64,000 nt of DNA, taken from a virus. The notes below the pieces were generated by a model. That model was not told the DNA's origin. It searched no databases and worked only from the letters and a program-made list of their open reading frames with translations. The position numbers were made by a program, and so were the translations under genes. The stretch lies in the IMG/VR virus record IMGVR_UViG_3300037111_000040, positions 57,715 through 121,714 of that record, one strand, 5' to 3'. Of this stretch, positions 34,550-48,219 are shown piece after piece; position 1 is the stretch's first letter, and each line of letters starts with the position of its first letter.

Positions 34550-34561
34550 AGTTTGAGTTGT

Positions 34562-34635: not shown

Positions 34636-34636
34636 C

Positions 34637-34710
34637 GCGGGGTTGATGTAGCGGTAGCATCGAAGTGTGCCACACTTTGCGCATCGGTTCGAACCCGATA
34701 CCCCGCTCCA
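34637..34710 (+). tRNA. tRNA-Gly(GCC)
   Basis: GAAGT-GT GCC AC-ACTTT, U73-CCA. Confidence 0.85.
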
Positions 34711-34789
34711 CTTTGGAGGAAGAAGAATGAAGATCGATTTGAACGCCGACATGCAGCATGTTTTCGCACGGTTGGCGAAAGGATTTCGA

Positions 34790-34864
34790 GCACCGTTAGT
34801 TGAGTCGGCACAACACGACCCTCGTAACGTCGAAGCCCCGGTTCGATTCCGGGACGGTGCTCCA
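34790..34864 (+). tRNA. tRNA-Thr(CGT)
   Basis: CGAC..CT CGT AA..GTCG, CCA. Confidence 0.85.
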
Positions 34865-34897
34865 CAGATTGACGAGAGGTAGAAGAAAGGGGATTCC

Positions 34898-35443: not shown

Positions 35444-35446
35444 AAG

Positions 35447-36169: not shown

Positions 36170-36213
36170 CATAAATGTTCGTTATCGTCTCCAAATTTTG
36201 CTATACTCGGGAG

Positions 36214-36939
36214 ATGAAAAACGAAGAAAGGCGAAAAGCTGCTCGGAGGCGGTGGTACTACAGGAACAGGAAATCCAAGAAGGTGTTGAAGTCGCGAATT
36301 CCTGACGTACCGCTGCTTTCTGTTGAGGAACGTAAGACTATTAGCAGGGCGAATGCTGTGGTTGCGCTGGCGAAAGCTCATGCTAAAGCAAAAATCAAAT
36401 CGGATCAGATACAACGTAAGAGAGAAGAGCGTCGATGCGTAATTTGCGGCGGTCCTGTTCTCGTTAAGAATCTGAAAGCAAAATCGTGCTCGGTGAGATG
36501 CGCGAAGATCGCCAGACGAAAAAGAAGAGAGAATTGGGAAAAGGCTTGCGCGTACTGCGGTTCCACATGTTCTGGTCAGAACAAGTATTGCGACGACTGC
36601 AACAAAAGCCAAATCTACAAGATGGCTCAGTCTACTGAAGATGTAAGCGATTCAAAGGCTGTCAAGCGTCTGGTGCTTCGGAGAAGAGGACACAGATGCG
36701 AAGGATGCGGTTTAGATCAGTGGATGGGAAAAGCCATCCCGCTTGAACTTCACCATGTGGACGGGGATTCAGAGAATAACAAAGATGAGAACCTGCAACT
36801 TCTCTGTCCTAATTGCCACGCTTTGACTCCAACGTTTCGTAATCGAAACAAAAGGAAGGCGAGCGAAAGAAGAAGAAAGATAAGAAAGACGAGAGAGTTT
36901 GCCGAAGTAGCTCAAGAGGAAGTAGCGGCGGTTTTGTGA
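36214..36939 (+). CDS. HNH endonuclease inserted in tRNA array 2
   Basis: 'CEGCG...LELHHVDGDSENNKDENLQLLCPNCH'. Confidence 0.85.
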   Translation: MKNEERRKAARRRWYYRNRKSKKVLKSRIPDVPLLSVEERKTISRANAVVALAKAHAKAKIKSDQIQRKREERRCVICGGPVLVKNLKAKSCSVRCAKIARRKRRENWEKACAYCGSTCSGQNKYCDDCNKSQIYKMAQSTEDVSDSKAVKRLVLRRRGHRCEGCGLDQWMGKAIPLELHHVDGDSENNKDENLQLLCPNCHALTPTFRNRNKRKASERRRKIRKTREFAEVAQEEVAAVL

Positions 36940-36976
36940 ACCGCTGATGGGATTTCGAGTATCCCCTTCGGCCCCA
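36901..36976 (+). tRNA. tRNA-Thr(TGT)
   Basis: GCGGT-TT TGT GA-ACCGC, CCA. Confidence 0.8.
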
Positions 36977-37059
36977 AGCTCACTGGGACACGCGGAATCT
37001 CCCGCTTACGGGCGGGAGGGTGCTACCAAGCTATAACGTGTCCCGGTAGCGCGATTCAT

Positions 37060-37138
37060 GGCGGTGTTGGCAGAGCGGTCTATTGCGCGTGTCTGTGGCA
37101 CACGTATTACATCGGTTCGAATCCGATACGCCGCCCCA
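37060..37138 (+). tRNA. tRNA-His(GTG)
   Basis: CGTGT-CT GTG GC-ACACG, G-1:C73, CCA. Confidence 0.9.
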
Positions 37139-37147
37139 AAGTTTTAC

Positions 37148-37223
37148 GGGCCTATAGCTCATTTAGGAGAGCGCCGCACTTGCAATGCGGAGGCGGTCGG
37201 GGCGGAGCCGACTAGGTCCACCA
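37148..37223 (+). tRNA. tRNA-Ala(TGC)
   Basis: CCGCA-CT TGC AA-TGCGG, G3:U70, CCA. Confidence 0.9.
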
Positions 37224-37553
37224 AGTTTGACTGGTGCCTCACCTGTAACGACGTAAGGGTGAAGGCGTCACGGGTCGCACGTCGCAAGGTAGAGGCCCGC
37301 TAAGTTTTTAGGAGAAATATGCGTCAATTCATAAAGCGATCCGAGCGCGGTTTTTCTCAGCGAAGACATGAGGGAGATTTGCGTAGGAGAAAGCAGTTCG
37401 CAAGCAAGATCGCGGATTGTTTCTTTGCTGAGAGTCCTTTCCAGCGGATGCTCATGAGGTGTGGACGCGCTCGGAAGCTGATGCAGGCATATCGCGCGAA
37501 GAAGATGATTCGCAGGCCGAGCAACTTTCGGCAGGATGTTTGGCAAGAGTTTT

Positions 37554-37629
37554 GTCGATTGAGCTAGTGCAGTCATAGCGTCCGCCTGAAGAGCGGAAGA
37601 ACTCGGGGCAGCACCGGGAGTCGACACCA
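37554..37629 (+). tRNA. tRNA-Phe(GAA)
   Basis: TCCGC-CT GAA GA-GCGGA, CCA; atypical T loop. Confidence 0.8.
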
Positions 37630-37630
37630 T

Positions 37631-37707
37631 CGGGGAGGGGCGCGGTCAGGTAGCGCTTCGGTCTCGGGTACCGAAGGTCATGGGTTCGAATCCCATCTCC
37701 CCGACCA
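37631..37707 (+). tRNA. tRNA-Pro(CGG)
   Basis: TCGGT-CT CGG GT-ACCGA, CCA. Confidence 0.9.
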
Positions 37708-37720
37708 TTTTGGAAGTCAC

Positions 37721-37797
37721 ACGGGTGTAGCGAAGTCTGGAAACGCACCTGCTTTGGGAGCAGGGGATCGGGGGTTCAAATCCCTCCACCCGTACCA
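37721..37797 (+). tRNA. tRNA-Pro(TGG)
   Basis: CCTGC-TT TGG GA-GCAGG, CCA. Confidence 0.9.
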
Positions 37798-37807
37798 TTT
37801 TGAATGA

Positions 37808-37884
37808 GGGCCTATAGCGTAGTTGGATGACGCGGCAGACTACGAATCTGTTATACGGGGGTTCGAATCCCTCTAGGCCCTCCA
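37808..37884 (+). tRNA. tRNA-Arg(ACG)
   Basis: GCAGA-CT ACG AA-TCTGT, CCA. Confidence 0.9.
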
Positions 37885-37903
37885 TAAAAAGCGCAGAATT
37901 TGC

Positions 37904-37932
37904 TTGACGCGTTTTTGGAACCGTTGTAAGGT
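37904..37932 (+). promoter_or_regulatory. Sigma70-like promoter of the ncRNA array/Ro60-like operon
   Basis: TTGACG-17 nt-TAAGGT. Confidence 0.6.
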
Positions 37933-37963
37933 TAGAGACGTTGCGTTTTTGAGATTGAGTTTT

Positions 37964-38826
37964 CGCTGACTGTTTGGCTTACATGCGCCTCAAAGCGAGG
38001 CATTTCAATTGAGATGAAACGAACCGGGTGCGATTCCCGGATGTCCCGAAAGGGTTGCCTGACGACTACAGCGGAGAAAAAAATTGGCTTGACTGATTTG
38101 CATACATGCTTTGAGAGCAGGAACACCATGCAGATCGACTACAAGCCATAAAGTTTGTGCTGACTGACTTGCTTACATGTCCTTTGGAGACCGAGGTCGG
38201 AGGTTCGAATCCTTCATCCTCCACCATCAAAGAATTGACGGGGGATTAGCTCAGCGGTAGAGCGCGTAAAATAGCAGATCGACTACAGCACAATGATTTT
38301 GAATTTGGCCTGACAGAAGTGCTTACATGAAGCTCAATTGGTCGAGCATCTGACTCTTAATCAGACGGTAGTTGGTTCAAATCCAACCTGTACCACCCCG
38401 CAAGGGGTAGCACTTCGACTACAGGCCAATAAGTTGTGGCGGGTTAGTCAAAAGCTAACTTCCGGGTCGACTACAGCGGCGACGCTGACTGAGTCGGATA
38501 CATGGAAAAGACGGTTGTATTTGGTTACAACAGTATGGAGGTTCGAATCCTTCACCCGCCACCATCAAGTTTTACTGGGGGACCTAAGAGGTTCCGGAAC
38601 GACTACAGCGATACTGCTGACTGATTCGGATACATGTCTTTTTGGCGCAAGCCAATCTCGGCTCGTAACCGAGTCCCCCAGCCAAGTTTGGGTTGACTGA
38701 AGTGGATACATGACTTTGTTCCGGGGGAAACTCCGGCCCCCTCCACCACCTTATTCGGCTTCATCAATATGGGGGGCGCGAGCCGCAAGGCTCCGCAAAA
38801 TCTAAACCATATCGACTACAACCCAA
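37964..38826 (+). ncRNA. Tandem array of seven Y-RNA-like structured RNAs
   Basis: Seven copies each of TGACWG-N7-TACATG and CGACTACA with covarying closing stems; units approx. 37964-38073, 38085-38148, 38156-38293, 38305-38429, 38438-38563, 38575-38684, 38688-38826; several carry tRNA-like arms. Confidence 0.75.
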
Positions 38827-38849
38827 AAGTTCCTTCCGGGAGGGGAACC

Positions 38850-39410
38850 ATGGCAAGTGGCGACCGTTTCTATCAGCTTGAGTTGCGTCATCGCCCTGCT
38901 CTCATGGGCGACGTAGGCTCCCTCCTCAAAATCGAAGGTATCGTGGTCGGCGGCGAAGGTGCGCAGGCGATCTTCATGCTCCCCGGCTATGTGCTGTGGG
39001 GAGATGGAGAATGGCCGGATGGCGCTGACGTTAAAACCCTGACCGCCGAGCAGTGGTCTGACTGGCTCCAGAGATCGGACAACCCCGAGATACTGGTGAA
39101 CGGATCGCTTGAGAAGGCGTTCCACCGCAAGCTCCGCTACGACATCTCTGGCACCGTCCAGCAGAAGGTGTGGGTCGCTGACGGCTGCAAGTGTCTTTAT
39201 TGTAAGCAGCCTATGGGCCGGGTGCAACTCACAGTGGACCACTTCTGGCCTTTAGAGCAGGGTGGTGTCAATGATCCGTCTGGATACCTTTCAGCGTGCC
39301 GCCGCTGCAATAAGGATAAAGGTGCCATGGACCCGCGTGACTGGTGCGCTCTCAAGGGTCTTGACTATGATTTCTATGTCGAGTATTTGAAAGAGAGAAA
39401 ACTTCCATGA
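38850..39410 (+). CDS. Protein with C-terminal HNH domain
   Basis: 'CLYCK...LTVDHFWPLEQGG...LSACRRCNKDKG'; first gene after the ncRNA array. Confidence 0.75.
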   Translation: MASGDRFYQLELRHRPALMGDVGSLLKIEGIVVGGEGAQAIFMLPGYVLWGDGEWPDGADVKTLTAEQWSDWLQRSDNPEILVNGSLEKAFHRKLRYDISGTVQQKVWVADGCKCLYCKQPMGRVQLTVDHFWPLEQGGVNDPSGYLSACRRCNKDKGAMDPRDWCALKGLDYDFYVEYLKERKLP

Positions 39411-39958
39411 GTCGCATGAACGATGCGGTGACAAAGCTGAGCATGGCCGACTATGTAAGTTATCTTGGAAGAACTTCTGGGCAATCTCTTTATGGCCGCA
39501 TTGAGAAAAATATCAGCCACGAGCCAATGAGTGGTTGTTGGCTTTGGATCGGCTCATCGGACGATAAGGGCTATGCACATATCGGAGCGACGTTACAGGA
39601 TGGCGGAAGAATAGTAATTCGTGTCCACCGTTTCATGTACGTCAAAAAGCATGGGCCACTCGAATTTGGTCAGGTTGTGAGGCATAAGTGCGATGTACGA
39701 TGCTGTGTTAACCCAGACCATCTAATTGTTGGGACTCAACTTGATAATATCCGCGATATGATTCAACGCGGACGCCAGAGGGCCGGAAAAGGTGAGCGAC
39801 ATGCACTATCGGTTTTAACTGAGGAGCGTGTACAAGCAATTCGTAGCCTCGCCGAACAGTGCAATTTTTCGTTCATGAAGTTAGCTCGGATATTTGAGGT
39901 TGACCCGGCAACAATACGTCGCGTGGTTGATCGTGAATCATGGCAGCATGTGGAATAG
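39407..39958 (+). CDS. HNH homing endonuclease
   Basis: 'GCWLWIG...VHRF...VRHKCDVRCCVNPDHL..GTQLDNIRDM' plus HTH. Confidence 0.9.
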   Translation: MSRMNDAVTKLSMADYVSYLGRTSGQSLYGRIEKNISHEPMSGCWLWIGSSDDKGYAHIGATLQDGGRIVIRVHRFMYVKKHGPLEFGQVVRHKCDVRCCVNPDHLIVGTQLDNIRDMIQRGRQRAGKGERHALSVLTEERVQAIRSLAEQCNFSFMKLARIFEVDPATIRRVVDRESWQHVE

Positions 39959-39971
39959 GAGAAATAGGAAA

Positions 39972-41480
39972 ATGACAGAATCTGGTTTAACGAAGCAAAG
40001 AATTTATGCCGAATTGGCACGCAGCCCTCACGGGAAGCTGAGCGACTACATCCCCATCGGCAAGCAAGCCATCGAGCAGGAAGGCGAGTTCTATCAGCAT
40101 CTCGTGGCATGGACGTTTAAGAATTCACAGGTTCGCGATGCGAAGATCGCGCTGCCGGTTCTTGGTCTGGCATACGAAAGCGATTTTGAGCTTCTCGACA
40201 ACAGCATCGCGCACCTCGCGCTGCTCGGCCCGCGTGAGATGCGCAAGGCGTTCGACTTCGTGCGCGAGATGCGCCCGAAGGGAAAGATGTCGCGGATGGA
40301 TCGGATGATCCGCGCCTACCTCCGCCAGAAGGAAGGGGAGAAGGGCTGGGATCACCTTGCCATCCAGCACCGCAAGGTGCTCAAGGCGCTCTACGCTCTT
40401 TCTCGCACCGGTCCGGGCAACCGCCACGTCGCGGCTGTGATCTCCGGCCAGTGGAAGGAGAGCATCAACGGCTCGATGGTCGTGACCAAGCTGGCGTTGC
40501 CAAAGGGATCGATCTTTGAGGCCGTGGCCAACCTGAAGAGCATGTCTCCTGTTGAGGCGGCTGGCGCGATCTTGAGGTTCAGGATTCCGTTCCTTATCGC
40601 CATGGGCGCGCTCGGGGAGAAGGCCAAGGACACTGATCTTGTTCTTGCTCTGATCGAACGCATGTCGCCGACCGAGTTGACGACGAACGTGAAGATGCTG
40701 GAGAAGCTGGGCATGAAGAACAACCCAGCGCTTCGCGGTGCGTTCGAGAAGGCGATGGAGAAGGCTGCGAAGTCGAAGAAGAACACGCTGAAGACGACTC
40801 AGGCCGTCGACGCCGTCGAGGACGAGGGGCTGAAGGAGAAGCTCCGTGGGCTCCAGAAGCAGCAGATCGCTGCGGCTGGCGGACCGGAGGGCAACTGGCT
40901 TGTGCTTGCCGACAAGAGCGGAAGCATGAGGGTGGCCATCGAGGTCGCACGGCAGGTTTCGGCACAGCTTGCTCAGTTCGTCAAGGGCAAGGTGTGGCTG
41001 GTGTTCTTCGACGTTGTCCCGATGACGGTGGACGTGACCGGGCTTTCGCTCGATCAAATCCAGAAGGCAACGCGGCACATTCGCGCAGACGGAGGCACTT
41101 CCATCGGATGCGGTTTGAACCGGATGCTGGAGGAGAAGATCGAGGTCGACGGCATCGCCGTTGTTTCAGACGGCGGCGAGAACACGGCTCCGTTCTTCCA
41201 CAACGTCTACAAGAAGTATTCGGAGTTCGTGGGCAAGGAAGTGCCGGTCTACTTCTACAGCACGAGCGGCGACAACAACACGTTCAGCGGCTACCTGAAC
41301 AACGCAGGGATCGAGTCGCAGATGTTTGACCTTCGTGGAAGCCAGATCGATTACTATTCCCTGCCGAACCTCGTTCAGTCAATGCGTTCGAATCGCTATA
41401 GTTTGGTGGACGAGATTCTGACAACTCCGCTCTTGTCGCTCAGCGACGTGCTCAAGATCGGTGAACTGGTTGGTGCGTAA
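39972..41480 (+). CDS. Ro60/TROVE-like protein (helical N-domain plus C-terminal vWA)
   Basis: About 502 aa; ~310-aa all-helical N-part, then MIDAS 'DKSGSM', 'GGTS', 'VSDGGEN'; adjacent to Y-like RNAs. Confidence 0.65.
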   Translation: MTESGLTKQRIYAELARSPHGKLSDYIPIGKQAIEQEGEFYQHLVAWTFKNSQVRDAKIALPVLGLAYESDFELLDNSIAHLALLGPREMRKAFDFVREMRPKGKMSRMDRMIRAYLRQKEGEKGWDHLAIQHRKVLKALYALSRTGPGNRHVAAVISGQWKESINGSMVVTKLALPKGSIFEAVANLKSMSPVEAAGAILRFRIPFLIAMGALGEKAKDTDLVLALIERMSPTELTTNVKMLEKLGMKNNPALRGAFEKAMEKAAKSKKNTLKTTQAVDAVEDEGLKEKLRGLQKQQIAAAGGPEGNWLVLADKSGSMRVAIEVARQVSAQLAQFVKGKVWLVFFDVVPMTVDVTGLSLDQIQKATRHIRADGGTSIGCGLNRMLEEKIEVDGIAVVSDGGENTAPFFHNVYKKYSEFVGKEVPVYFYSTSGDNNTFSGYLNNAGIESQMFDLRGSQIDYYSLPNLVQSMRSNRYSLVDEILTTPLLSLSDVLKIGELVGA

Positions 41481-41557
41481 TGCCGAAGAAGATTCCAATG
41501 AAGAGGAAGAACATCTTTGTCAACCCCGGTATGGAGAAGACGGAAAGGAGGAAGCCT

Positions 41558-41857
41558 ATGCTTCAGGAATTCAAGAACTTCAATGTGGACGCTGCATCCA
41601 TCGACGAGCTTGTTGCGTTGTCGGCGTTTGGCAAGCAGCTTCGCGGTGAGTTCGAGGCCCAGAAGGTTGCGGTACCCGAGTACGTTTCGGACAACCTGAA
41701 CACCCTCGCTCGCGAGATCGACTCGCGCATGGCCGACCGCCGTGCAACGCGTATCCGTGAGTTGAAGTCGCAGCGCGACAGTCTCAAGACTGCGCAGGAG
41801 AAGCGCGATTCCATCGACAAGGAACTGGCCGCACTTGGCGAGCCTGTCGGCGCGTAA
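41558..41857 (+). CDS. Small coiled-coil protein
   Basis: AGGAGG RBS before MLQEFK; last gene of the operon. Confidence 0.65.
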   Translation: MLQEFKNFNVDAASIDELVALSAFGKQLRGEFEAQKVAVPEYVSDNLNTLAREIDSRMADRRATRIRELKSQRDSLKTAQEKRDSIDKELAALGEPVGA

Positions 41858-41886
41858 CATTTTCTTGGTTGCCACACTTGGCAGTG

Positions 41887-41914
41887 GGCACGGTGCGAGC
41901 CGTGCCCTTTTTTT
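41887..41914 (+). terminator. Rho-independent terminator
   Basis: GGCACGG-TGCGAG-CCGTGCC followed by a T run, between convergent genes. Confidence 0.8.
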
Positions 41915-41916
41915 GT

Positions 41917-42357
41917 CTACCTTTTTTTCTGCCAGTAGCCGTACACGCACCGCGTCCCATCGCGGGACGGATCGTAGGTGTCGCGGTTGACGCCGTCGAT
42001 CACTGCGGTCCAGTGCTTGCTGACCGAGACGACCAGCCGCCCCATTGGTAGCTCGCCGTCCCTGAGATGCACCTTGCATCCTTGGCCGATGAGCATCGTG
42101 GCCGTCCACTCGAAGCCGAGGTCATGCATGTAGTCGAGGAACCATAGCCGCTTCACGCTGACCCCGTTGCGTGCGCTGGCGCTCCGCTTCTTCGAGCGCT
42201 TGGTTATCCTCTGGCTCCCCATCCCCTCAGCCAAGGCCGCGTAGACCTTGGCGTATGGCTTGCCGCTCGCGATGGCAACGGCTCGGGCAACGCAGTCGCC
42301 TGCGTCACCCTTGAAGCCTGCCGCCGCACGCCCACCATCATCGTAGACGTACTTCAC
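41917..42357 (-). CDS. Hypothetical phage protein, possibly papain-like fold
   Basis: 'GDCVARAVAIA...HWTAVIDGV..DTYD' Cys/His/Asp arrangement. Confidence 0.6.
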   Translation of the reverse strand: MKYVYDDGGRAAAGFKGDAGDCVARAVAIASGKPYAKVYAALAEGMGSQRITKRSKKRSASARNGVSVKRLWFLDYMHDLGFEWTATMLIGQGCKVHLRDGELPMGRLVVSVSKHWTAVIDGVNRDTYDPSRDGTRCVYGYWQKKR

Positions 42358-42710
42358 TTGCGCCCTCCCTTCTTCGCGCGCATGAATCCGGGAAGCTCGC
42401 CGCGATCCTTGCGCTCCTGAGCTACGCGCTTCGACGCCTTGGAGCGTCTCCGGGCTGTGAGCGCATCACGCTGTGAGGCGATCAGCGATGCAACCTTCGG
42501 AGGGAGGCATACGCGAACGAGCCCATTCTCGTCCGCGACCTCGATGAAGATGTGATCGCCCTGATCTTCGTGGCGGCACGTCTCGACAATGTAGGTTTCT
42601 GACTTGCCGGTGATCGATTGCACATTTTTGATGGTGGATGGTTTGGTGAACATCGCCACGTCGTGTAGACCGCCGCGAATCCTGTCGTACTTGCTGATTT
42701 GGTCATCCAT
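42354..42710 (-). CDS. Hypothetical protein
   Basis: AGGAGG RBS; 4-nt overlap with the next gene. Confidence 0.6.
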   Translation of the reverse strand: MDDQISKYDRIRGGLHDVAMFTKPSTIKNVQSITGKSETYIVETCRHEDQGDHIFIEVADENGLVRVCLPPKVASLIASQRDALTARRRSKASKRVAQERKDRGELPGFMRAKKGGRK

Positions 42711-42904
42711 GTTTTTCTTTCCTCCTATATCTATTTTCTCATTGACCATTCTCAAACATGCATGAATACAGGCGATTCACCACTTCTAGCGTTCGTAAGT
42801 AACTGACAGTACGATGTGAAAATAAAATACTTGACAAGAATTTCCAATTTTTGCACTTGCGCTCTAACTCTGCACCGTGCGACCCTGATTCGGGAGGAGC
42901 CACC

Positions 42905-43414
42905 ATGAGCGACAATTTCCAGTGTCCGCGCCGATCTGAGAGTCACATCGGAACGTCTCCAGTGTTCGCCCGCGACAATGACTACGACCCCTCGGATGAC
43001 ACTTGCCAGTACTGCGGCTCGCTCAATCCTGATACCCTGATCGCGCGGCTTGAGGCTGGGGATGTGCTGTTGGGATCGACGGACAAAAACTACAAAGTCT
43101 ACGTCGAGAACAACGGTGGCGCTCCGTTCAAGCAGAGCTTCCGGGATTGCCCGAAAGACAAGAAGATGACTGGATTCGGAGGCAACGAATACTTCGTGAG
43201 CAGTTGCGATGGCGGTCCCGATGCGTGTACTCACTGGGTGACGCGTGAAACGTCAGAGACGAAATTTTATTTCCCGCATTTGAGCGACGAGCAGAGGACG
43301 CGATTCATCGAGTTGTTCAACGAGAAGCGGATCAAGTTCTCTGGAGGTTACGGCTTCTACGTCATGCCGTTCTTCTGCCGCGCCGCCCCCGCAACCCAAA
43401 AGTCAGACTCTTGA
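42905..43414 (+). CDS. Hypothetical protein
   Basis: GGAGGAG RBS; 'DTCQYCGSLNPD...STDKNYKVYV...KFYFPHL'. Confidence 0.65.
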   Translation: MSDNFQCPRRSESHIGTSPVFARDNDYDPSDDTCQYCGSLNPDTLIARLEAGDVLLGSTDKNYKVYVENNGGAPFKQSFRDCPKDKKMTGFGGNEYFVSSCDGGPDACTHWVTRETSETKFYFPHLSDEQRTRFIELFNEKRIKFSGGYGFYVMPFFCRAAPATQKSDS

Positions 43415-43481
43415 CGACTCTCCGACCTAAAGGACGGAGATTCTAGAGCCCTCGCGGGCTCCATTGGCTAAAACAGCCTGC

Positions 43482-44606
43482 TCAGACTACGCATAGCGTT
43501 ACTCCGCTTACGTTAGCGTCTGATAGCTCTGCCCGAGCTAATATGTTTACTGCCCCGTTCCTGTCCGCGTGGTCCGTGTGTCCACAGGAGACGCAGAGGA
43601 ATAGCTCCTGAGTCTTCCTGTTGTCTTTGGATACATGATCGCACTTGGCACAGGTCTGGGATGTGTACTTTGGGTCTACGGCAACGAACATCCTACCGGC
43701 CCATTCTGCCTTGTAGGATAGTTGCCTAAACCATTCTGCCCAACTCACGTCTAGAACATGTTTGGCAAGGTTGCCCTTGGACATGCCAGAGACGTTTAAA
43801 TCTTCTACCGCGATAGCATCGTACTTCTGAATCACTGCTGTCGATAGTTTATGGAGGAAGTTCGCGCGCTTGTTGGCAACACGTTGGTGGACTTTCTTTA
43901 GCAGGATAACTGCCTTGCGCCTACGATTAGATCCCTTCTTGCGCCGAGCAACTTTCCGCTGTGCTCTGCGGAGTTCTGCTTGAGCGTTCTGGTAGATTCG
44001 AGGGTTTGGAATCGCCGTACCATCAGAGAATGTGGCGAACGACGCGATGCCTACGTCTATGCCTACCGGCAATCCAGTGGACGGCAACGGCACGGGCTCG
44101 AACTCAAATGTGATCGTCGCGTACCATCCATCTGCTTCGCGTTTGATTGTACACAGCTTGAGCACAGCATCATTCGGGAGCGGACGAGACAACCGCACCT
44201 TGACGTTCCCGATCTTGGAGAGCGATAGTTGATTTCCCTGGAGAGACCAGCCCGTATTATTGAACGCGAAGGAGTTGAAACGATCCCTGCCTTTGAACCG
44301 AGGGAATCCAGGAGCACCGCCAAGTTTGCAGCGACGAAAGAAGTTCTGATAGGCAACGTCGAGCTTCTTTAGAACGTTCTGTAGCACCTGGGAATGGACT
44401 GTTTTGTACTCGGGGACGGCTTCCTTGATTGCAGGCAACTGCTTATCCTGATCGAATCTGCCAACACGTTGGTGGAGTTTATAGGCCCCGATGCGCTCTT
44501 GCAGGGCATCGTTGTATAAAGATCGGCACAGAAACAAGGTCTGGTCCAGCGCCACACGCTGTGCCTTGTTGGGAACTAGCCGATATTTGTGAGTCTTGAC
44601 TGACAT
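43482..44606 (-). CDS. tnpB: RNA-guided nuclease TnpB
   Basis: RuvC 'GIDVG', 'VEDL', 'HADRNGAVNI'; Zn ribbon 'TSQTCAKC...CVSCG'. Confidence 0.95.
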   Translation of the reverse strand: MSVKTHKYRLVPNKAQRVALDQTLFLCRSLYNDALQERIGAYKLHQRVGRFDQDKQLPAIKEAVPEYKTVHSQVLQNVLKKLDVAYQNFFRRCKLGGAPGFPRFKGRDRFNSFAFNNTGWSLQGNQLSLSKIGNVKVRLSRPLPNDAVLKLCTIKREADGWYATITFEFEPVPLPSTGLPVGIDVGIASFATFSDGTAIPNPRIYQNAQAELRRAQRKVARRKKGSNRRRKAVILLKKVHQRVANKRANFLHKLSTAVIQKYDAIAVEDLNVSGMSKGNLAKHVLDVSWAEWFRQLSYKAEWAGRMFVAVDPKYTSQTCAKCDHVSKDNRKTQELFLCVSCGHTDHADRNGAVNILARAELSDANVSGVTLCVV

Positions 44607-44631
44607 GATGTCTCCACTATACACTTGGTCT

Positions 44632-45051
44632 ATGAGTGATGCAAGCGAAATCCGACACGGCAGACACTGTGTTTTCCAGATTCATGTTCATTTGGTCTTT
44701 GTGACCAAGTACAGGCGCAAAGTCTTTGACAAAAGTGCCATTGACAGTTTGCGAACTATATTCAAGAACGTTGCCACAGACTTTGAAGCCGATCTAGTCG
44801 AGATGGACGGGGAGCAAGATCACGTTCATCTTTTGGTCAACTACCCACCAAAGCACTCTGTATCTGCTATGGTCAACAGTCTCAAAGGCGTCTCCAGTCG
44901 CCTGCTCAGACTCGAACGTCCCGATATCCAGAAGCGCTATTGGAAAGGCGTCCTCTGGTCTCCAAGCTACTTTGCTGCATCATGCGGAGGAGCACCGTTA
45001 GGTATCATCAAGCAATACATAGAGCAACAGAACACTCCAGAATCCGCGTAG
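44632..45051 (+). CDS. tnpA: IS200-type Y1 transposase
   Basis: 'HLVFVTKYRR', HUH 'DHVHLL', 'LWSPSYF', 'IKQYIEQQ'. Confidence 0.95.
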   Translation: MSDASEIRHGRHCVFQIHVHLVFVTKYRRKVFDKSAIDSLRTIFKNVATDFEADLVEMDGEQDHVHLLVNYPPKHSVSAMVNSLKGVSSRLLRLERPDIQKRYWKGVLWSPSYFAASCGGAPLGIIKQYIEQQNTPESA

Positions 45052-45155
45052 CCGCCTTTCGTATCAACCCCTAAAGGGGCTGAACTCTTGACGACCAGCT
45101 ATCCATCCCCGAGCTGAAGCACGGGGCTTTTCGCTGAACTCAGGTAATTTTTTAC

Positions 45156-45184
45156 TTGCAAAGAATCCGAAACAGGTGTAGGCT
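45156..45184 (+). promoter_or_regulatory. Sigma70-like promoter of tRNA array 3
   Basis: TTGCAA-17 nt-TAGGCT. Confidence 0.65.
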
Positions 45185-45191
45185 GAATTTC

Positions 45192-45281
45192 GTGCAGATA
45201 AGGTCCAAATCCGTGAGAACCTCCATGACCGGGACCAAGCGGGTCATTTGGGGAGTTGTGCGCGAGGGTTGGGACGACTAA
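45192..45281 (+). CDS. Attenuator leader peptide 3 (MQIRSKSVRTSMTGTKRVIWGVVREGWDD)
   Basis: GTG 7 nt after -10; codons match the 12 downstream anticodons. Confidence 0.8.
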   Translation: MQIRSKSVRTSMTGTKRVIWGVVREGWDD

Positions 45282-45306
45282 TCTGCAATCAGATTCGAGT
45301 CCACAG

Positions 45307-45339
45307 ACCCTCGGCTCAGGCCGGGGGTTTTTGTTGTTT
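45307..45339 (+). terminator. Attenuator terminator upstream of tRNA array 3
   Basis: ACCCTCGGC-TCAG-GCCGGGGGT-TTTTGTTGTTT; competing helix CGAGGGT(45263-45269)/ACCCTCG(45307-45313). Confidence 0.8.
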
Positions 45340-45347
45340 GACAATAC

Positions 45348-45423
45348 GGGGGCGTAAGCTTAGCGGCTAAACTGTCGGATTCCAAACCCGAACTCGCAGG
45401 TTCGAGTCCTGCCGCCCCCGCCA
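45348..45423 (+). tRNA. tRNA-Trp(CCA)
   Basis: TCGG..TT CCA AA..CCGA, G73-CCA. Confidence 0.9.
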
Positions 45424-45428
45424 TATTT

Positions 45429-45502
45429 GCCGCGTACCCGAGATGGGACGACGCTCTCATAAGGCGTTCGGAGTAAGGGTTCGCTTCCCTCGCGCGGCAC
45501 CA
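45429..45502 (+). tRNA. tRNA-Met/Ile2(CAT)
   Basis: ACGCT-CT CAT AA-GGCGT, CCA; short D arm. Confidence 0.75.
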
Positions 45503-45511
45503 AGTGTTGTT

Positions 45512-45605
45512 GGGGGATAGCATCGGCTGTGCGGCGGAGCCTTATAAACTCTGGAGAGCGCCAGATTAGCGCAACGGCACGGTTCAACTCCGTGATCCCC
45601 TACCA
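45512..45605 (+). tRNA. tRNA-Ile(TAT) with long variable arm
   Basis: GGAG..CT TAT AA..CTCT; extra GCGC/GCGC arm; CACGG/CCGTG T stem; CCA. Confidence 0.75.
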
Positions 45606-45606
45606 T

Positions 45607-45683
45607 CCCGACGTAGCTCAAATGGGCAGAGCAACCGGCTCTTAACCGGAAGGTTGGAGGATCGTGGCCTCTCGTCGGGACCA
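45607..45683 (+). tRNA. tRNA-Lys(CTT)
   Basis: CCGG-CT CTT AA-CCGG, CCA. Confidence 0.85.
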
Positions 45684-45689
45684 AGTTAC

Positions 45690-45764
45690 GGGATGCAAGC
45701 TTTAATGCTGAAGCAACCGGCTTTTAACCGGAAGAACGGGGATGGTTACCCCGGCATCCCACCA
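45690..45764 (+). tRNA. tRNA-Lys(TTT)
   Basis: CCGG-CT TTT AA-CCGG, CCA; atypical T loop. Confidence 0.8.
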
Positions 45765-45765
45765 T

Positions 45766-45840
45766 GAGCCTATCGTCTAACGCATAAGACGCCGGTCTTC
45801 TAAACCGAGAATCTGAGTTGAACTCTCAGTGGGCTCTCCA
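45766..45840 (+). tRNA. tRNA-Arg(TCT)
   Basis: CGGT-CT TCT AA-ACCG, CCA. Confidence 0.85.
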
Positions 45841-45841
45841 T

Positions 45842-45917
45842 CAACTCGTGGTGAAAATGGAGATCACGGAAACCTCCTAAGTTTCAGTTCTGGATTCGAG
45901 TTCCAGCGGGTTGACCA
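45842..45917 (+). tRNA. tRNA-Arg(CCT)
   Basis: GAAAC-CT CCT AA-GTTTC, CCA. Confidence 0.85.
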
Positions 45918-45924
45918 AAGTTTT

Positions 45925-45999
45925 GCAGGCGTGGTGAAACGGAAATCACAGAGGTCTCCGGAACCTCAATTCGCAGTTCAAATCTGCGCGCTTGCACCA
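45925..45999 (+). tRNA. tRNA-Arg(CCG)
   Basis: GAGGT-CT CCG GA-ACCTC, CCA. Confidence 0.85.
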
Positions 46000-46000
46000 T

Positions 46001-46074
46001 GGGGGATTAGTTCAACGGAAGAACACCTGTCTTACAAGCAGGCTACGAGGGCTCGACTCCTTCATCCCCCACCA
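46001..46074 (+). tRNA. tRNA-Val(TAC)
   Basis: CCTGT-CT TAC AA-GCAGG, CCA. Confidence 0.9.
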
Positions 46075-46081
46075 AATTTTG

Positions 46082-46156
46082 GGCCGGATAGGTTAACGAG
46101 AAAACCTCTTGCTCGGTAAGCAAGAATTGTCGGGGCAGTTCCGACTCTGGCCTCCA
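46082..46156 (+). tRNA. tRNA-Thr(GGT)
   Basis: CTTGC-TC GGT AA-GCAAG, CCA. Confidence 0.8.
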
Positions 46157-46160
46157 TTTT

Positions 46161-46234
46161 GTACCTGTCGTCCAACGGTAGGACGCACGCCCGATTAGCG
46201 TGTCATCGCGGTTCAAATCCGTGCAGGTACACCA
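46161..46234 (+). tRNA. tRNA-Ile(GAT)
   Basis: CACGC-CC GAT TA-GCGTG, A73-CCA. Confidence 0.8.
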
Positions 46235-46237
46235 AAT

Positions 46238-46699
46238 TTAGCGGCGCTTTTTGCGTTGGTGTGGACACCCACCGTAAAACTGTTTGGCTGCGTTGCAATT
46301 GTGACATAGAACTTGGAATATCGGAGGAAAGTTGTTTGCGATCAGCCAATAATACAATTGGGTGCCGTGTCCTACTTCGCGTCGATGTTTTCTACCATTT
46401 CCGTTGATGTGGTCGAGGGCTAAAAACTCGATAGTATCTTCGCCGCAGCACGCACACTTCGGGTGATTACCTCCGTAAGCTACAAGGCACTGGAGCCGTT
46501 TGCCTTGATTTCGCGCCTTGTGGAGAGTTGAAAGGCGAGCCTTGTTGCGCTCTCTGTATTCTTTTGAGTAGCCACTCATATATTCTGAGTGACACAACTT
46601 ACATCTCCCATCTGGAACGCGCATTCCATGCGACGTGCGCGTTGGGAAAGAAGTAATACGTTTACGGGATTTGCACTGGTTGCAAACTTTTGTTTTCAT
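46238..46699 (-). CDS. HNH-like endonuclease
   Basis: 'CACCGE...LALDHINGNG...FQVLCHNCN'. Confidence 0.8.
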   Translation of the reverse strand: MKTKVCNQCKSRKRITSFPTRTSHGMRVPDGRCKLCHSEYMSGYSKEYRERNKARLSTLHKARNQGKRLQCLVAYGGNHPKCACCGEDTIEFLALDHINGNGRKHRREVGHGTQLYYWLIANNFPPIFQVLCHNCNAAKQFYGGCPHQRKKRR

Positions 46700-46723
46700 G
46701 CTAAGATTCCCAATGGGGGAGAG

Positions 46724-47182
46724 ATGATTAGCAGCAAGGATTGGAGGTACCTGAAATATATTTTAGCCCATAAGCGATTTGTTTTCCAAGCTGGTCTAAA
46801 ATTTAGGGTACCAATTTGGAGACTGATAATCCACGACTACTCCAAATTTTTCCCCGTCGAGTGGATCGCGTATCGGGAATTCTTTTACGGCGAGCGGACA
46901 CAGGTGGTCAAGGATGCGTTCAGGATAGCGTGGCTGCACCACATCCACCTGAACAAGCACCACTGGAACCACTGGGTGTATTCGGACGAGAGCAGCACAC
47001 CGGTTCTGGAAATGCCAGAGATTTATCTTCGGGAGATGCTGGCCGATTGGTGGGGAGCCGGACGCGCGATCTTCGGAGTCTGGCGCGCGGATCAGTGGTA
47101 CGAAGAAAAGCGAGATGTGATCGTGCTTCACCCAAAGACGCAGGCCGAGGTGGAGAGGCGATTGACGAGTGTAAAGTTTTAG
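46724..47182 (+). CDS. HD-like phosphohydrolase-family protein (DUF5662-like)
   Basis: 'HK..V...HDYSKF...AWLHHIHLNKHHW...EMP...EMLADW'. Confidence 0.65.
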   Translation: MISSKDWRYLKYILAHKRFVFQAGLKFRVPIWRLIIHDYSKFFPVEWIAYREFFYGERTQVVKDAFRIAWLHHIHLNKHHWNHWVYSDESSTPVLEMPEIYLREMLADWWGAGRAIFGVWRADQWYEEKRDVIVLHPKTQAEVERRLTSVKF

Positions 47183-47224
47183 TGGGGCTGGTATCGGGTA
47201 GAATGGGCTCACGGGAGGTGACCG

Positions 47225-47482
47225 ATGGGCATGTTTTACGTGAATGCAGAAACCACGCTGCTGGATGATGAGTTCTTGATCGAGGCCGACGATTTTGTAA
47301 GCGCGACGATGAAGGCACTCGATTTCTTACGCGAGTTAGACAACAGAGTGGCGAAGCACCTCGGTGAGCCGGTCGCTGATTCGAAGATCATCACGCTCAA
47401 CGAAATCAAGGCGATCTGGGCAAACGAAGAAGGCATCCAGAAATGCCTTGAGAGGCTAGAAGCACATCAAGAAGACGAATAA
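47225..47482 (+). CDS. Hypothetical protein
   Basis: GGAGG RBS; 85 aa. Confidence 0.55.
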   Translation: MGMFYVNAETTLLDDEFLIEADDFVSATMKALDFLRELDNRVAKHLGEPVADSKIITLNEIKAIWANEEGIQKCLERLEAHQEDE

Positions 47483-47557
47483 GCGGGGCTGGTATATGGG
47501 TTGCTGCCTCAGCCTTCCAAGCTGAAGAAACGGGTTCGAGTCCCGTGCCCCGCTCCA
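47483..47557 (+). tRNA. tRNA-Gly(TCC)
   Basis: TCAGC-CT TCC AA-GCTGA, U73-CCA. Confidence 0.9.
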
Positions 47558-48219
47558 TCCTTTTCCGTGATAAACTGCGCCTTATGGCGTCCAGTTCCCT
47601 TCAACTCGTTCCTCCGCAAACCGTCTGGCACGCGACGCGAAACCGCACGCGCGAAGAGTTGTGGCACGCCGAGGGATGCAAATGCCACTGGTGTGGAAAG
47701 CCTACGCGCCTGTGCGCCAATCCAGAACCAGATCAAGCGACAATCGAGCACATCGTTTCTCGCGCAAAAGGTGGAACAGACGCGAGAGACAATCTGGTAT
47801 CCGCATGTCACTTATGCAACGCTCGCCGCGCATACGAGCAAGCTATGGGCGTTCCAGATGGTTCCATGCTTGCGACGTTTCCCGTCACAGATAGGCAAAA
47901 GAGAGCGTTCGGACTCGCAGTCCCTGTCGGGCCACAGGGAAAGCCAAACTACTATCGCCATATTGCGCTCACGGGAGACGAGAAAAAGGCGATCATGGCT
48001 GGGCAGGTTGCGCCTGCGCCCGTTCTCCACCACGCCGTGAGGCACAATGCTGAAGATGTTCTCCGCGAGCAACGCGATCAGGCGCTTCGCGAATTGACGC
48101 TCGCCCGCAACGAACTCAAGCTGTTCAGAAAAATCGTCGAGGATCAGGAAAAGGATTTGAAGACGATGACGGTCTGGAAGCTCATCCGGAAACGCATCTC
48201 AGAGTGGATCAGGCCGTGA
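47545..48219 (+). CDS. HNH endonuclease (start uncertain)
   Basis: 'CHWCG...ATIEHIVSRAKGG...NLVSACHLCN'. Confidence 0.75.
   Translation: MPRSILFRDKLRLMASSSLQLVPPQTVWHATRNRTREELWHAEGCKCHWCGKPTRLCANPEPDQATIEHIVSRAKGGTDARDNLVSACHLCNARRAYEQAMGVPDGSMLATFPVTDRQKRAFGLAVPVGPQGKPNYYRHIALTGDEKKAIMAGQVAPAPVLHHAVRHNAEDVLREQRDQALRELTLARNELKLFRKIVEDQEKDLKTMTVWKLIRKRISEWIRP

What the first reader, a model, noticed from the sequence alone, without database searches (positions are those of the whole stretch)
45192..45339. Leader 3: rare-codon panel (ATA, AGG, AGA, CGG, GGA) matching array 3
The leader contains ATA, AGG, AAA, GTG, AGA, ACC, ATG, GGG, AAG, CGG, ATT, TGG and GGA. Array 3 encodes Ile-TAT/GAT, Arg-CCT/TCT/CCG, Lys-TTT/CTT, Val-TAC, Thr-GGT, CAT, Trp and, distally, Gly-TCC. 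Three Arg and two Lys isoacceptors are each sampled once. Three TCC codons are unmatched and may be spacers. CGAGGGT/ACCCTCG plus GGAC/GTCC forms the antiterminator.
Basis: partly seen in the sequence, partly recalled or inferred. Interest (0 to 1): 0.86.

Follow-up and report, generated by a model that had tools for sequence, protein, structure and literature searches.

The report
Leader-peptide attenuator gating phage tRNAs
A tiny test gene, written in the codons read by the twelve tRNA genes behind it and wired to a switchable transcription stop, probably lets this uncultured peat phage make those tRNAs only when ribosomes run short of them.

Summary

**What is there (window 45156-45339):**
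- a weak promoter-like site
- a 29-codon ORF (GTG 45192 to TAA 45281)
- an antiterminator whose 5' strand lies in the last ORF codons
- the strongest intrinsic terminator of the region, 45305-45330, 17 nt before tRNA-Trp

**Codon match:** the ORF samples 12 of 12 tRNAs of array 3. Ten of these are by exact Watson-Crick codon (p about 2e-4 to 5e-4), and only in this frame. Leaders 1 and 2 match their own arrays in the same way. Cross-matches stay at background (diagonal 0.57-0.68, off-diagonal 0.07-0.16).

**Relatives:** twenty distinct homologues from related about 105-140 kb phages keep the ORF in frame.
- Each has either a promoter placed for a leaderless start or a Shine-Dalgarno site.
- Their terminators differ in sequence, but the stop-codon/antiterminator geometry is kept.
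- Arg, Thr and Gly codons are split between leaders 2 and 3 by isoacceptor. This argues for tRNA sensing rather than amino-acid sensing.

**Caveats:** the "rare-codon" label is only partly true. Some relatives carry codons without a matching tRNA gene.

**Novelty:** five literature searches found no published case. This scan has already reported the same kind of system in at least eight other phage genomes.

The parts
45156..45184 (+). Promoter-like site: -35 TTGCAA (45156-45161), 17-nt spacer, -10 TAGGCT (45179-45184). The -10 ends 7 nt before the GTG start, so the leader ORF would sit at or next to the 5' end of the transcript (leaderless).
   Evidence: Read. It was NOT listed by the consensus scan at its threshold: it matches 4 of 6 and 3 of 6. 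The same layout (TTGCA[A/T] or TTGACA, 17 nt, TAnnnT ending 6-9 nt before the start) is seen in 13 of 20 homologues.
45192..45281 (+). Leader ORF: 29 sense codons plus TAA, VQIRSKSVRTSMTGTKRVIWGVVREGWDD*.
   Evidence: An in-frame ORF of 20-31 codons is kept in 20 of 20 homologues.
45198..45254 (+). Sensing panel, codons 3-21 (ATA AGG TCC AAA TCC GTG AGA ACC TCC ATG ACC GGG ACC AAG CGG GTC ATT TGG GGA). It holds a codon for each of the 12 tRNAs of array 3.
   Evidence: A ribosome with its A site on these codons leaves an antiterminator worth about -8 to -18 kcal/mol.
45225..45247 (+). Conserved hairpin inside the ORF (ATGACC ... GGTCAT around AAGCGG). It is a candidate pause hairpin or '1:2' element.
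   Evidence: MFE fold. It is the most conserved block of alignment A2. L007, L046, L047 and L063 carry CCAT..ATGG-type changes on both strands. Its function is inferred.
45263..45275 (+). Antiterminator 5' strand inside the last ORF codons: CGAGGGT (45263-45269) and GGAC (45272-45275). A ribosome at the stop codon would cover it.
45280..45295 (+). Apical hairpin of the antiterminator: AATCTG / CAGATT with a 4-nt loop.
45299..45313 (+). Antiterminator 3' strand: GTCC (45299-45302) and ACCCTCG (45307-45313). The second segment is also the 5' arm of the terminator, so the two structures exclude each other.
45305..45339 (+). Intrinsic terminator: an 11-pair stem with a 4-nt loop (45305-45330), followed by the T-tract TTTTTGTTGTTT (45328-45339).
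   Evidence: It ranks first of 29 terminator-like sites. Hairpin energy is -19.9 kcal/mol. Homologues carry different stems of -11 to -20 kcal/mol. 5 of 5 consensus pairs show changes on both sides.
45348..46234 (+). Array 3 core: Trp-CCA, CAT, Ile-TAT, Lys-CTT, Lys-TTT, Arg-TCT, Arg-CCT, Arg-CCG, Val-TAC, Thr-GGT, Ile-GAT.
47483..47557 (+). tRNA-Gly(TCC), the distal last member of array 3. In L005, L006 and L011 it directly follows Ile-GAT. Here it is separated from the core by an inserted block of genes.

Best explanation
This is a ribosome-mediated (leader-peptide) transcription attenuator that gates the third tRNA array of an uncultured 121.7-kb phage.

Proposed sequence of events (every step is inferred from sequence and folding; none is shown at the bench):
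1. Transcription starts at a weak promoter a few bases before GTG 45192.
2. A ribosome translates the 29-codon leader while RNA polymerase moves on.
3. If all codons of the panel (codons 3-21) are decoded promptly, the ribosome reaches the last codons or the stop and covers CGAGGGT/GGAC. The terminator (45305-45330 plus T-tract) then forms, and transcription ends 17 nt before tRNA-Trp.
4. If a charged tRNA for any panel codon is scarce, the ribosome stalls upstream. CGAGGGT/GGAC then pair with GTCC/ACCCTCG as soon as those are made. The terminator's 5' arm is sequestered, and polymerase reads through into the twelve tRNA genes.
5. The new tRNAs relieve the stall. The product of the operon therefore closes its own negative feedback loop.
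6. Without any ribosome, the 5' part of the ORF pairs with the antiterminator strand and termination is the default.

Leaders 1 and 2 do the same for arrays 1 and 2, each with its own codon set.
For: (1) Codon match.
- 12 of 12 tRNAs of array 3 are sampled, 10 of 12 by exact codon, and 17 of 28 codons are decoded.
- p = 2e-4 to 5e-4, or 5e-6 to 8.5e-5 for the joint measure.
- Among 3943 small ORFs of the genome, this ORF ties for the top wobble cover. It shares 12 of 12 with three longer ORFs of 37-40 codons.
- Other frames give 4 of 12 and 5 of 12.

(2) Specificity.
- Leader x array matrix in the window: own arrays 8/11, 9/11 and 10/12 by exact codon, others 0-3.
- In 4 of 4 genomes that hold all three leaders, the diagonal is 0.59/0.68/0.57 and the off-diagonal 0.07-0.16.

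(3) Isoacceptor level. Counts are (array-2 type):(array-3 type) codons.
- Arg: 10:2 in 7 leader-2 homologues, 7:50 in 20 leader-3 homologues.
- Thr: 19:7 against 9:71.
- Gly: 9:0 against 0:36.
- Window alone: leader 3 has 0:3, 0:3 and 0:1.

(4) Structure.
- MFE -66 kcal/mol, z = -3.7, 0 of 200 shuffles as good.
- Free-energy gain of the antiterminator is -9.5 to -17.6 kcal/mol with the A site on codons 4-20, against -0.8 to -7.3 on codons 22-30.
- Switch amplitude is 9.5 against 1.4 +/- 3.2 in 150 dinucleotide shuffles, and 2 of 150 reach it. For leaders 1 and 2, 0 of 150 reach the observed value.

(5) Conservation.
- 20 of 20 distinct homologues keep an in-frame ORF that ends at or in the G-rich strand.
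- 13 of 20 have a -10-like hexamer 6-9 nt before the start. 7 have an AAGGA/AGGA site instead (with L007 read from its context line).
- In 20 of 20 the antiterminator is weaker with the ribosome at the stop than with an upstream stall, means -1.8 against about -10. A footprint-only mask gives -2.8 against -10.6.
- Terminator stems differ, with compensatory changes.

(6) Leader peptides of families 1 and 2 keep their composition while the residue order changes.

(7) In L010, array 3 has gained Glu-TTC, Glu-CTC and Asp-GTC. Its leader has GAA and two GAT in the sensing part.

(8) A contig of a peat RNA library (X20) covers 45305-45571, from the terminator into tRNA-Trp, CAT and Ile-TAT. This is weak, because contigs show neither ends nor strand.
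Against: - There is no experiment, and the host is unknown.
- The promoter is weak (4 of 6 and 3 of 6) and the scan did not list it.
- A leaderless GUG start works in some bacteria only.
- At equilibrium, with only the footprint masked and the full transcript present, the terminator wins at most stall positions. P(antiterminator) exceeds 0.5 only for A-site codons 4-6. The model therefore rests on co-transcriptional kinetics.
- 11 of 28 codons are not decoded by array 3 under conservative wobble, among them TCC x3, CAG and GTC.
- Many homologues carry CAG, ACG, CGC, CAC or TTC near the N-terminus. These belong to array-2 tRNAs.
- Counter-examples exist. L011 has GAA in the sensing part but no Glu tRNA was found. 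The window's leader 2 has TTC but no tRNA-Phe was found. L007's leader 2 has Pro codons but no Pro tRNA was detected.
- Three tRNAs of array 3 need relaxed detection.
- The homologues are related, so counts over them are not independent events.
- The 'no ribosome' default is clear in the window (-6.2 against -18.6) but small in L005, L043 and L061.
Confidence: 0.75

Rival explanations
1. It is a real ribosome-dependent attenuator, but it reads general translation capacity, amino-acid supply, or the timing of infection (for example host shut-off). It does not read the level of particular tRNAs. On this view the codon match is a by-product of grouping tRNAs by amino acid.
For: - Any slowing of the ribosome in codons 3-21 would free the antiterminator.
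- The Anabaena tRNA array is induced by general translational stress (PMC8421152, passages read).
- Several leader-3 homologues carry codons of array-2 tRNAs.
- Leaders have not tracked some tRNA losses.
Against: - Synonymous codons of Arg, Thr and Gly are divided between leaders 2 and 3 according to which isoacceptor each array encodes. Amino-acid sensing or general sensing does not require that.
- Three unrelated leaders each match their own array and not the others.
Confidence: 0.13
2. The ORF is not translated. The RNA would be a structured leader that is acted on by a protein or by tRNA directly (T-box-like), or it would be just a leaky terminator that sets a fixed low level of tRNA expression.
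For: - The promoter-to-start distance leaves no room for a Shine-Dalgarno site in the window.
- The central block is conserved at nucleotide level and forms a hairpin.
- The terminator is thermodynamically dominant.
Against: - 20 of 20 homologues keep the frame, and 7 carry a well-spaced AAGGA/AGGA site.
- The match is frame-specific.
- The composition of the leader-1 and leader-2 peptides is kept while their order changes.
- The stop codon always abuts the antiterminator strand.
- Apart from tRNA matches, a search of 28000-47999 at E up to 1 gave only sub-threshold hits on this strand or the other (YrlA, a beta-tmRNA fragment, sX4, HgcC, three plastid UTR families). None was a T-box or another leader family.
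Confidence: 0.07
3. The leader encodes a small protein with a job of its own, and the terminator is an ordinary insulator between transcription units.
For: Part of the peptide (TKRVIWG) is conserved in most leader-3 homologues.
Against: - The conserved part coincides with a conserved RNA hairpin.
- Leaders 1 and 2 change residue order freely.
- I found no promoter between the terminator and tRNA-Trp when reading 45330-45367. The array therefore depends on read-through.
Confidence: 0.04
4. The ORF and the codon match arose by chance next to a terminator.
For: Small ORFs are plentiful (3943 of 15-45 codons in this genome). A few longer ones also reach 12 of 12 with wobble.
Against: - Length-matched p is 2e-4 to 5e-4 for this leader. 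It is similar for two more leaders at the two other places fixed in advance.
- The ORF is conserved in 20 homologues.
Confidence: 0.01

Closest known systems
Leader-peptide (ribosome-mediated) transcription attenuators of amino-acid operons: trp, his, leu, pheA, and the multivalent thr and ilvGMEDA leaders (recalled textbook knowledge; PMC1183508 and PMC3082878 seen only as search listings with abstract starts)
   Same: - A short ORF directly after the promoter.
- Regulatory codons tied to the operon's product.
- An antiterminator and an intrinsic terminator that exclude each other.
- A ribosome at the stop codon masks the antiterminator, and an upstream stall frees it.
- An upstream segment pairs with the antiterminator strand when nothing is translated.
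   Different: - The genes controlled are tRNA genes, not enzymes.
- The regulatory codons are a panel of about 12 different codons, mostly used once each. Classical leaders use runs for one to three amino acids.
- Synonymous codon choice follows isoacceptors.
- The product (tRNA) acts directly on the sensor.
- The element is phage-encoded, and the start is probably leaderless.
Long tRNA array (trn operon) of Anabaena sp. PCC 7120 under the repressor TrcR (PMC8421152, passages read; PMC10272220, abstract and outline)
   Same: An extra, horizontally moving array of tRNA genes that is silent by default and switched on when translation is impaired.
   Different: - Control in Anabaena is at initiation, by a ribbon-helix-helix repressor that binds direct repeats over the -10 box.
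- The words leader, attenuat- and terminator occur 0 times in PMC8421152.
- The published operator motif has 0 matches in this window with up to 1 mismatch.
T-box riboswitches (recalled)
   Same: They sense tRNA status and choose between a terminator and an antiterminator.
   Different: - A T-box binds uncharged tRNA directly through a specifier codon and the T-box sequence, without a ribosome, and controls synthetase and amino-acid genes.
- No Rfam T-box match was found here.
- This element instead has a translated-looking ORF with a multi-codon panel.
Leaderless polycysteine short ORFs that act as cysteine-responsive attenuators in mycobacteria (bioRxiv 10.1101/834739; search listing and abstract start only)
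   Same: A short ORF that begins at the 5' end of the transcript (AUG or GUG) senses supply during its own translation and controls downstream genes.
   Different: It senses one amino acid, controls protein-coding operons, and is bacterial rather than phage-encoded. I did not read its mechanism.

Membership tests
Ribosome-mediated leader-peptide transcription attenuator | A short ORF with translation start signals lies in the 5' leader, directly after the promoter. | tested here: met
   The ORF is 45192-45281. The -10-like hexamer ends 7 nt before GTG. 13 of 20 homologues have the same leaderless layout and 7 of 20 have an AAGGA/AGGA site. Translation itself is not shown.
Ribosome-mediated leader-peptide transcription attenuator | Regulatory codons are cognate to what the operon supplies, and are enriched beyond chance. 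| tested here: met
   12 of 12 tRNAs are sampled, with p 2e-4 to 5e-4. The match is specific to the frame and to the array.
Ribosome-mediated leader-peptide transcription attenuator | An intrinsic terminator lies between the leader ORF and the first structural gene. | tested here: met
   The terminator is 45305-45330 plus a T-tract, 17 nt before tRNA-Trp. It is present in 20 of 20 homologues.
Ribosome-mediated leader-peptide transcription attenuator | The antiterminator excludes the terminator. A ribosome at the stop codon masks it, and a ribosome stalled at the regulatory codons leaves it free. | tested here: met
   These are thermodynamic models with masked footprints, and the kinetics were not modelled.
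Ribosome-mediated leader-peptide transcription attenuator | An upstream segment sequesters the antiterminator strand when there is no translation (1:2 pairing, pause hairpin). | tested here: inconclusive
   It is clear in the window: the MFE pairs the 5' ORF with the 3' ORF, and the gain is -6.2 without a ribosome against -18.6 with a stall. It is weak in L005, L043 and L061.
Ribosome-mediated leader-peptide transcription attenuator | Read-through rises when the cognate charged tRNA is limiting. | not testable with these tools
   This needs a reporter assay, cell-free assay or 3'-end mapping. RNA-library contigs only show that the array and the terminator region are covered.
T-box riboswitch | A specifier loop and the conserved T-box sequence are recognisable by the Rfam model. 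| tested here: not met
   Rfam at E up to 1 over 28000-48000 gave no T-box hit.
TrcR-controlled long tRNA array (Anabaena type) | [quoted passage not shown] | tested here: not met
   0 matches in the window with up to 1 mismatch.

The most novel reading that the evidence does not exclude
The three leaders together form a phage-encoded tRNA-pool monitor with isoacceptor resolution. Each codon of a panel reports on one tRNA species. Loss of any one of them would then switch on a replacement set, which shuts itself off once decoding recovers. Such a loss could come from host anticodon nucleases used in anti-phage defence, or from decay of host tRNA after shut-off. That would be a sensing arm for the known counter-defence role of phage tRNAs, and the first case where tRNA genes are controlled by the decoding of their own codons.
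Probability: 0.35. Interest if true: 0.9.

Novelty: new variant of a known kind. Interest (0 to 1): 0.8.

Why it matters
How phages regulate their tRNA genes is largely unknown. In the papers I could reach, control of a tRNA array has been worked out only for the Anabaena array (PMC8421152), and that works through a repressor.

An attenuator whose test codons are the codons of the tRNAs it releases would explain three things:
- how large phages pay for dozens of tRNA genes only when they are needed
- why these arrays are sorted by amino acid and isoacceptor
- how phage tRNA supply connects to tRNA-targeting host defences

The idea is directly testable, because the switch is about 150 nt long and portable. 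It would also be a compact natural part that reports decoding speed of chosen codons. About 20 natural variants are available here for comparison.

Tried and rejected
**Searches that gave little**
- Searching deposited phage genomes with the array-3 and array-1 DNA gave only tRNA-sized hits. 0 records covered 80% of the query.
- PHROGs named only 4 of 10 large proteins.

**Ideas rejected**
- ARAGORN at a very loose threshold gave 336 calls in 64 kb. One was a 'tRNA-Ala' over 45251-45333. I treat this as noise, and I dropped my early idea that the antiterminator is a tRNA remnant.
- No tRNA-Phe could be found in the window. Relatives do have Phe-GAA after Ala-TGC.
- L008, a second lineage with Glu/Asp in array 3, has an endonuclease-like gene where the leader would be. 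It gave no second test of the Glu/Asp co-change.

**Rows dropped**
- Of 29 distinct regions upstream of a tRNA-Trp, 21 hold the homologous leader. I analysed 20 and dropped L040, which is nearly the same as L037.
- The other 8 have no homologous leader within 230 nt: L003, L012, L014, L016, L024, L025, L045 and L066.
- In one search I dropped three rows as wrong ORF picks by my script: L046 under A1, and L014 and L047 under A2.
- I trimmed nine over-long ORFs to the homologous start.

**Methods that fell short**
- The MAFFT alignment of whole leaders (A2) is not in register for the antiterminator. I therefore did not count columns for it and used per-sequence energies instead.
- The terminator alignment (A3) captured only 5 pairs.
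- The equilibrium fold of the full transcript with footprint masks favours the terminator at most positions. I report this as a limit of the model.

**RNA libraries**
- The bin 44600-45263 has depth 0-1.3 in the four RNA runs. A part without cover is no evidence.
- Contig starts at 45305 (X20) and 45348 (X21) are not the same place and show no RNA end.
- A contig of X14 leaves the window at 45253 and runs on in letters that look like a relative's leader end. I draw nothing from it.

**Not used or not seen**
- Structure, complex and protein-atlas tools were not used.
- Supplements of PMC8421152 (promoter mapping, array survey) could not be seen. They may hold details on upstream regions of other arrays.
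Full report
**Setting**

The window is the last 64 kb of a single 121,714-bp contig with 54.5% G+C. The system treats it as a virus record. It has no close relative among deposited phages and few PHROG hits.

It carries 36 tRNA genes by ARAGORN at default and a few more at a relaxed threshold, all on the + strand. They fall in three large arrays starting at 28381, 34389 and 45348, plus a small group at 31202-32549. HNH and other small genes are interspersed. The finding concerns the 150 nt in front of the third array.

**Check of the observation**

Array 3 holds Trp-CCA, CAT, Lys-CTT, Arg-TCT, Arg-CCT, Arg-CCG, Val-TAC, Ile-GAT and the distal Gly-TCC at default settings. Three more need relaxed detection:
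- Ile-TAT has no Rfam hit.
- Lys-TTT has 23.4 bits in Rfam, below the gathering score of 29.
- Thr-GGT has 42.8 bits in Rfam.

All three are found at the same positions in relatives.

The terminator at 45305-45330 is the best of 29 terminator-like sites between 28000 and 47900. The second best on the + strand in front of tRNAs lies before array 1. The named pairings CGAGGGT:ACCCTCG and GGAC:GTCC are in the sequence and appear in constrained folds.

**Is the codon match more than chance?**

- With conservative wobble rules, the leader samples 12 of 12 tRNAs of array 3, 10 by the exact Watson-Crick codon. 17 of its 28 codons are read by that array.
- In 200,000 length-matched windows, taken either from any stop-free frame or from long ORFs, the exact-codon cover is reached with p = 2e-4 to 5e-4. 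Wobble cover and decoded count together are reached with p = 5e-6 to 8.5e-5.
- Among all 3943 small ORFs of the genome, this ORF is at the top for array 3. It ties at 12 of 12 with three longer ORFs of 37-40 codons.
- The other two frames of the same DNA give 4 of 12 and 5 of 12.
- The ORFs in front of arrays 1 and 2 match their own arrays equally well, with p of the same order, and not the other arrays.

These are three unrelated sequences at three places fixed in advance, so chance is not a serious explanation.

**Relatives**

The Ro60-sized vWA protein between arrays 2 and 3 has more than a thousand homologues. Many carry the same three arrays in the same order.

Of 29 distinct regions upstream of a tRNA-Trp, 21 hold a homologue of leader 3. 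I analysed 20. For those 20:
- All keep an in-frame ORF of 20-31 codons.
- 13 have a TTGCA[A/T] or TTGACA box, a 17-nt spacer and a TAnnnT hexamer that ends 6-9 nt before the start codon. The ORF would therefore begin at the 5' end of the RNA.
- 7 instead have an AAGGA/AGGA site 3-7 nt before the ATG.

Two different ways of providing a translation start at the same codon argue that the ORF is translated.

The leader-1 family (8 members) is made almost only of Leu, Ser, Cys and Tyr. The leader-2 family (7 members) is made of Arg, Phe, His/Gln, Asn, Ala, Thr, Pro and Gly. In both, the order of residues changes from phage to phage while the composition stays. In the four genomes that hold all three leaders, the fraction of codons read by the own array is 0.59, 0.68 and 0.57, against 0.07-0.16 for the other arrays. 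Over 16 leader-3 homologues with 10 or more tRNAs, 64% of codons are matched and 89% of tRNAs are sampled.

**tRNA or amino acid?**

Arg, Thr and Gly each have isoacceptors in both array 2 and array 3. The sensing parts of the leaders follow that split. Counts are (array-2 type):(array-3 type) codons.

| Amino acid | Leader-2 family (7) | Leader-3 family (20) |
|---|---|---|
| Arg | 10:2 | 7:50 |
| Thr | 19:7 | 9:71 |
| Gly | 9:0 | 0:36 |

In the window alone, leader 3 has 0:3, 0:3 and 0:1. The counts are over related sequences and are not independent events. The direction, however, is what tRNA-level sensing predicts, and amino-acid sensing does not need it.

One natural experiment points the same way. 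In L010, array 3 has taken in Glu-TTC, Glu-CTC and Asp-GTC, and its leader has GAA and two GAT in the sensing part. 18 of the other 19 leaders have no Asp or Glu codon there.

The exception is L011, which has GAA without a Glu tRNA. Other mismatches exist too:
- The window's leader 2 has TTC, but no tRNA-Phe could be found.
- L007's leader 2 has Pro codons, but no Pro tRNA was detected.
- Many leader-3 homologues start with CAG, ACG, CGC or CAC, or TTC, which belong to array 2.

The match is strong but not strict.

**Structure and mechanism**

The free leader folds with z = -3.7. Its 5' ORF pairs with its 3' ORF, and the terminator is formed.

I asked how much free energy the terminator's 5' arm gains by pairing upstream at the moment when its 3' arm has not yet been made, with a ribosome placed at each codon. 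Values are in kcal/mol.

| State | Free-energy gain (kcal/mol) |
|---|---|
| Window, A site on codons 4-20 | -9.5 to -17.6 |
| Window, codon 21 | -7.7 to -8.5 |
| Window, codons 22-30 | -0.8 to -7.3 |
| Window, no ribosome | -6.2 |

The panel codons lie exactly in the responsive stretch. Leaders 1 and 2 show the same step.

The amplitude of the step is 9.5, 9.8 and 16.2 for leaders 3, 1 and 2. In 150 dinucleotide shuffles it is 1.4 +/- 3.2, 0.7 +/- 2.7 and 0.0 +/- 2.1, and 2, 0 and 0 shuffles reach the observed value.

In 20 of 20 homologues the step is present, although the terminator stems differ (hairpins of -11 to -20). The mean is -1.8 at the stop against about -10 from 4-10 codons upstream. 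With a footprint-only mask the means are -2.8 at the stop, -10.6 at codon 6 and -5.6 with no ribosome. In a small alignment of the terminators, 5 of 5 consensus pairs show changes on both sides.

As a limit, an equilibrium fold of the whole transcript favours the very stable terminator at most stall positions. The switch must therefore be kinetic, as in the classical attenuators. This comparison is recalled knowledge.

**RNA evidence**

The stretch is held by many peat, permafrost and lake metagenome runs and by six peat RNA libraries. In the four RNA libraries laid, contigs cover parts of array 3. One contig (X20) runs from 45305 through the terminator into tRNA-Trp, CAT and Ile-TAT.

Depth is very uneven along the 20 kb. 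For example it is 12.9-37.7 over 37960-38623, and 0 in three of the four runs over 41944-43271. This speaks for RNA rather than carried-over DNA. Contigs cannot show ends, strand or level, so this is only a weak hint that read-through RNA exists.

**Comparison with what is known**

The element works like a leader-peptide attenuator and meets each sequence-level feature of that class that I could test (see the membership table). It differs in four ways:
- in what it controls (tRNA genes)
- in the form of the sensor (a panel of single codons for a dozen tRNAs)
- in following isoacceptors
- in its likely leaderless start

It is not a T-box. It is not of the Anabaena TrcR type: the operator motif has 0 matches, and PMC8421152 holds the words leader, attenuat- and terminator 0 times.

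Five full-text searches with different word sets found no paper that describes a leader peptide or attenuator in front of tRNA genes. A sixth search was only a title look-up. The library lacks most subscription journals, and supplements were closed.

**Earlier notes of this scan**

Follow-up agents reported the same kind of system in at least eight other phage genomes, among them giant and crAss-like phages. Each found no published account. These are AI notes and not independent evidence. I list them because they show that this is a recurring find of the scan.

This report adds:
- a 20-member family of one leader
- the two modes of translation start
- the isoacceptor split
- the position-resolved switch with shuffle controls
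- the Glu/Asp co-change
- the counter-examples

**Verdict**

It is unpublished as far as I could search. It is a new variant of a known kind of control and has high interest.

Noticed in passing
window 43482-45051: A complete IS200/IS605 element sits directly upstream of the leader-3 promoter. It has TnpA (Y1_Tnp, 149.6 bits) on the + strand and TnpB (OrfB_IS605 plus a Cas12f1-like TNB domain) on the - strand. Relatives have no such element there. The T-run and -35 box of the promoter are intact.
   Followed up: partly
window 37960-38830 and 39894-41480: An array of Y-RNA-like units lies in front of a Ro60-sized vWA protein. Rfam gives a weak YrlA hit at 38190-38271 (27.9 bits, gathering score 69). 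The protein matches PHROG 850 'RNA-binding protein' and has more than 1000 homologues. This array and 41280-41943 have the highest depth of the 20 kb in four peat RNA libraries (12.9-37.7 and 4.7-45.4).
   Followed up: partly
L006/L020 (about 2861 and 14039 in L006); L007 13464; L037; L017: Relatives carry tRNAs with stop-codon-reading anticodons. CTA occurs twice in L006, once in the slot where others have Arg-TCT. TTA occurs in the slot of Lys-TTT in L007 and L037. These are possible suppressor tRNAs. The leader ORFs of these phages end in TGA (L006) or TAG (L007, L037).
   Followed up: no
window 37224-37630, compared with L005 8336-8498: The window has no detectable tRNA-Phe, although leader 2 keeps a TTC codon. 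In relatives, Phe-GAA follows Ala-TGC. In the window an 82-aa ORF (37319-37567) lies at that place.
   Followed up: partly
L012 6250-6478 (same as L053): A more distant relative has a single tRNA-Trp behind its own TTGACA promoter, an unrelated short frame that contains TGG, and a strong terminator. It may be a one-tRNA version of the same layout.
   Followed up: no
window 45335-45347 and the same place in 19 of 20 homologues: A conserved TTTGA[C/A]AA motif lies between the terminator's T-tract and the 5' end of tRNA-Trp. No -10 box follows at promoter distance. It is perhaps a processing or termination context.
   Followed up: no
window 31202-32549: The small group Met-CAT, Asp-GTC, Glu-CTC, Glu-TTC and Thr-AGT has no leader of its own. 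A 180-aa ORF ends 38 nt before it. In L010 and L008 the Glu and Asp genes sit inside array 3 instead.
   Followed up: partly
window 45512-45605: The tRNA with anticodon TAT is 94 nt long and has an extra arm. Only the relaxed ARAGORN run finds it in the window. Shorter versions are found at the same place in many relatives.
   Followed up: partly
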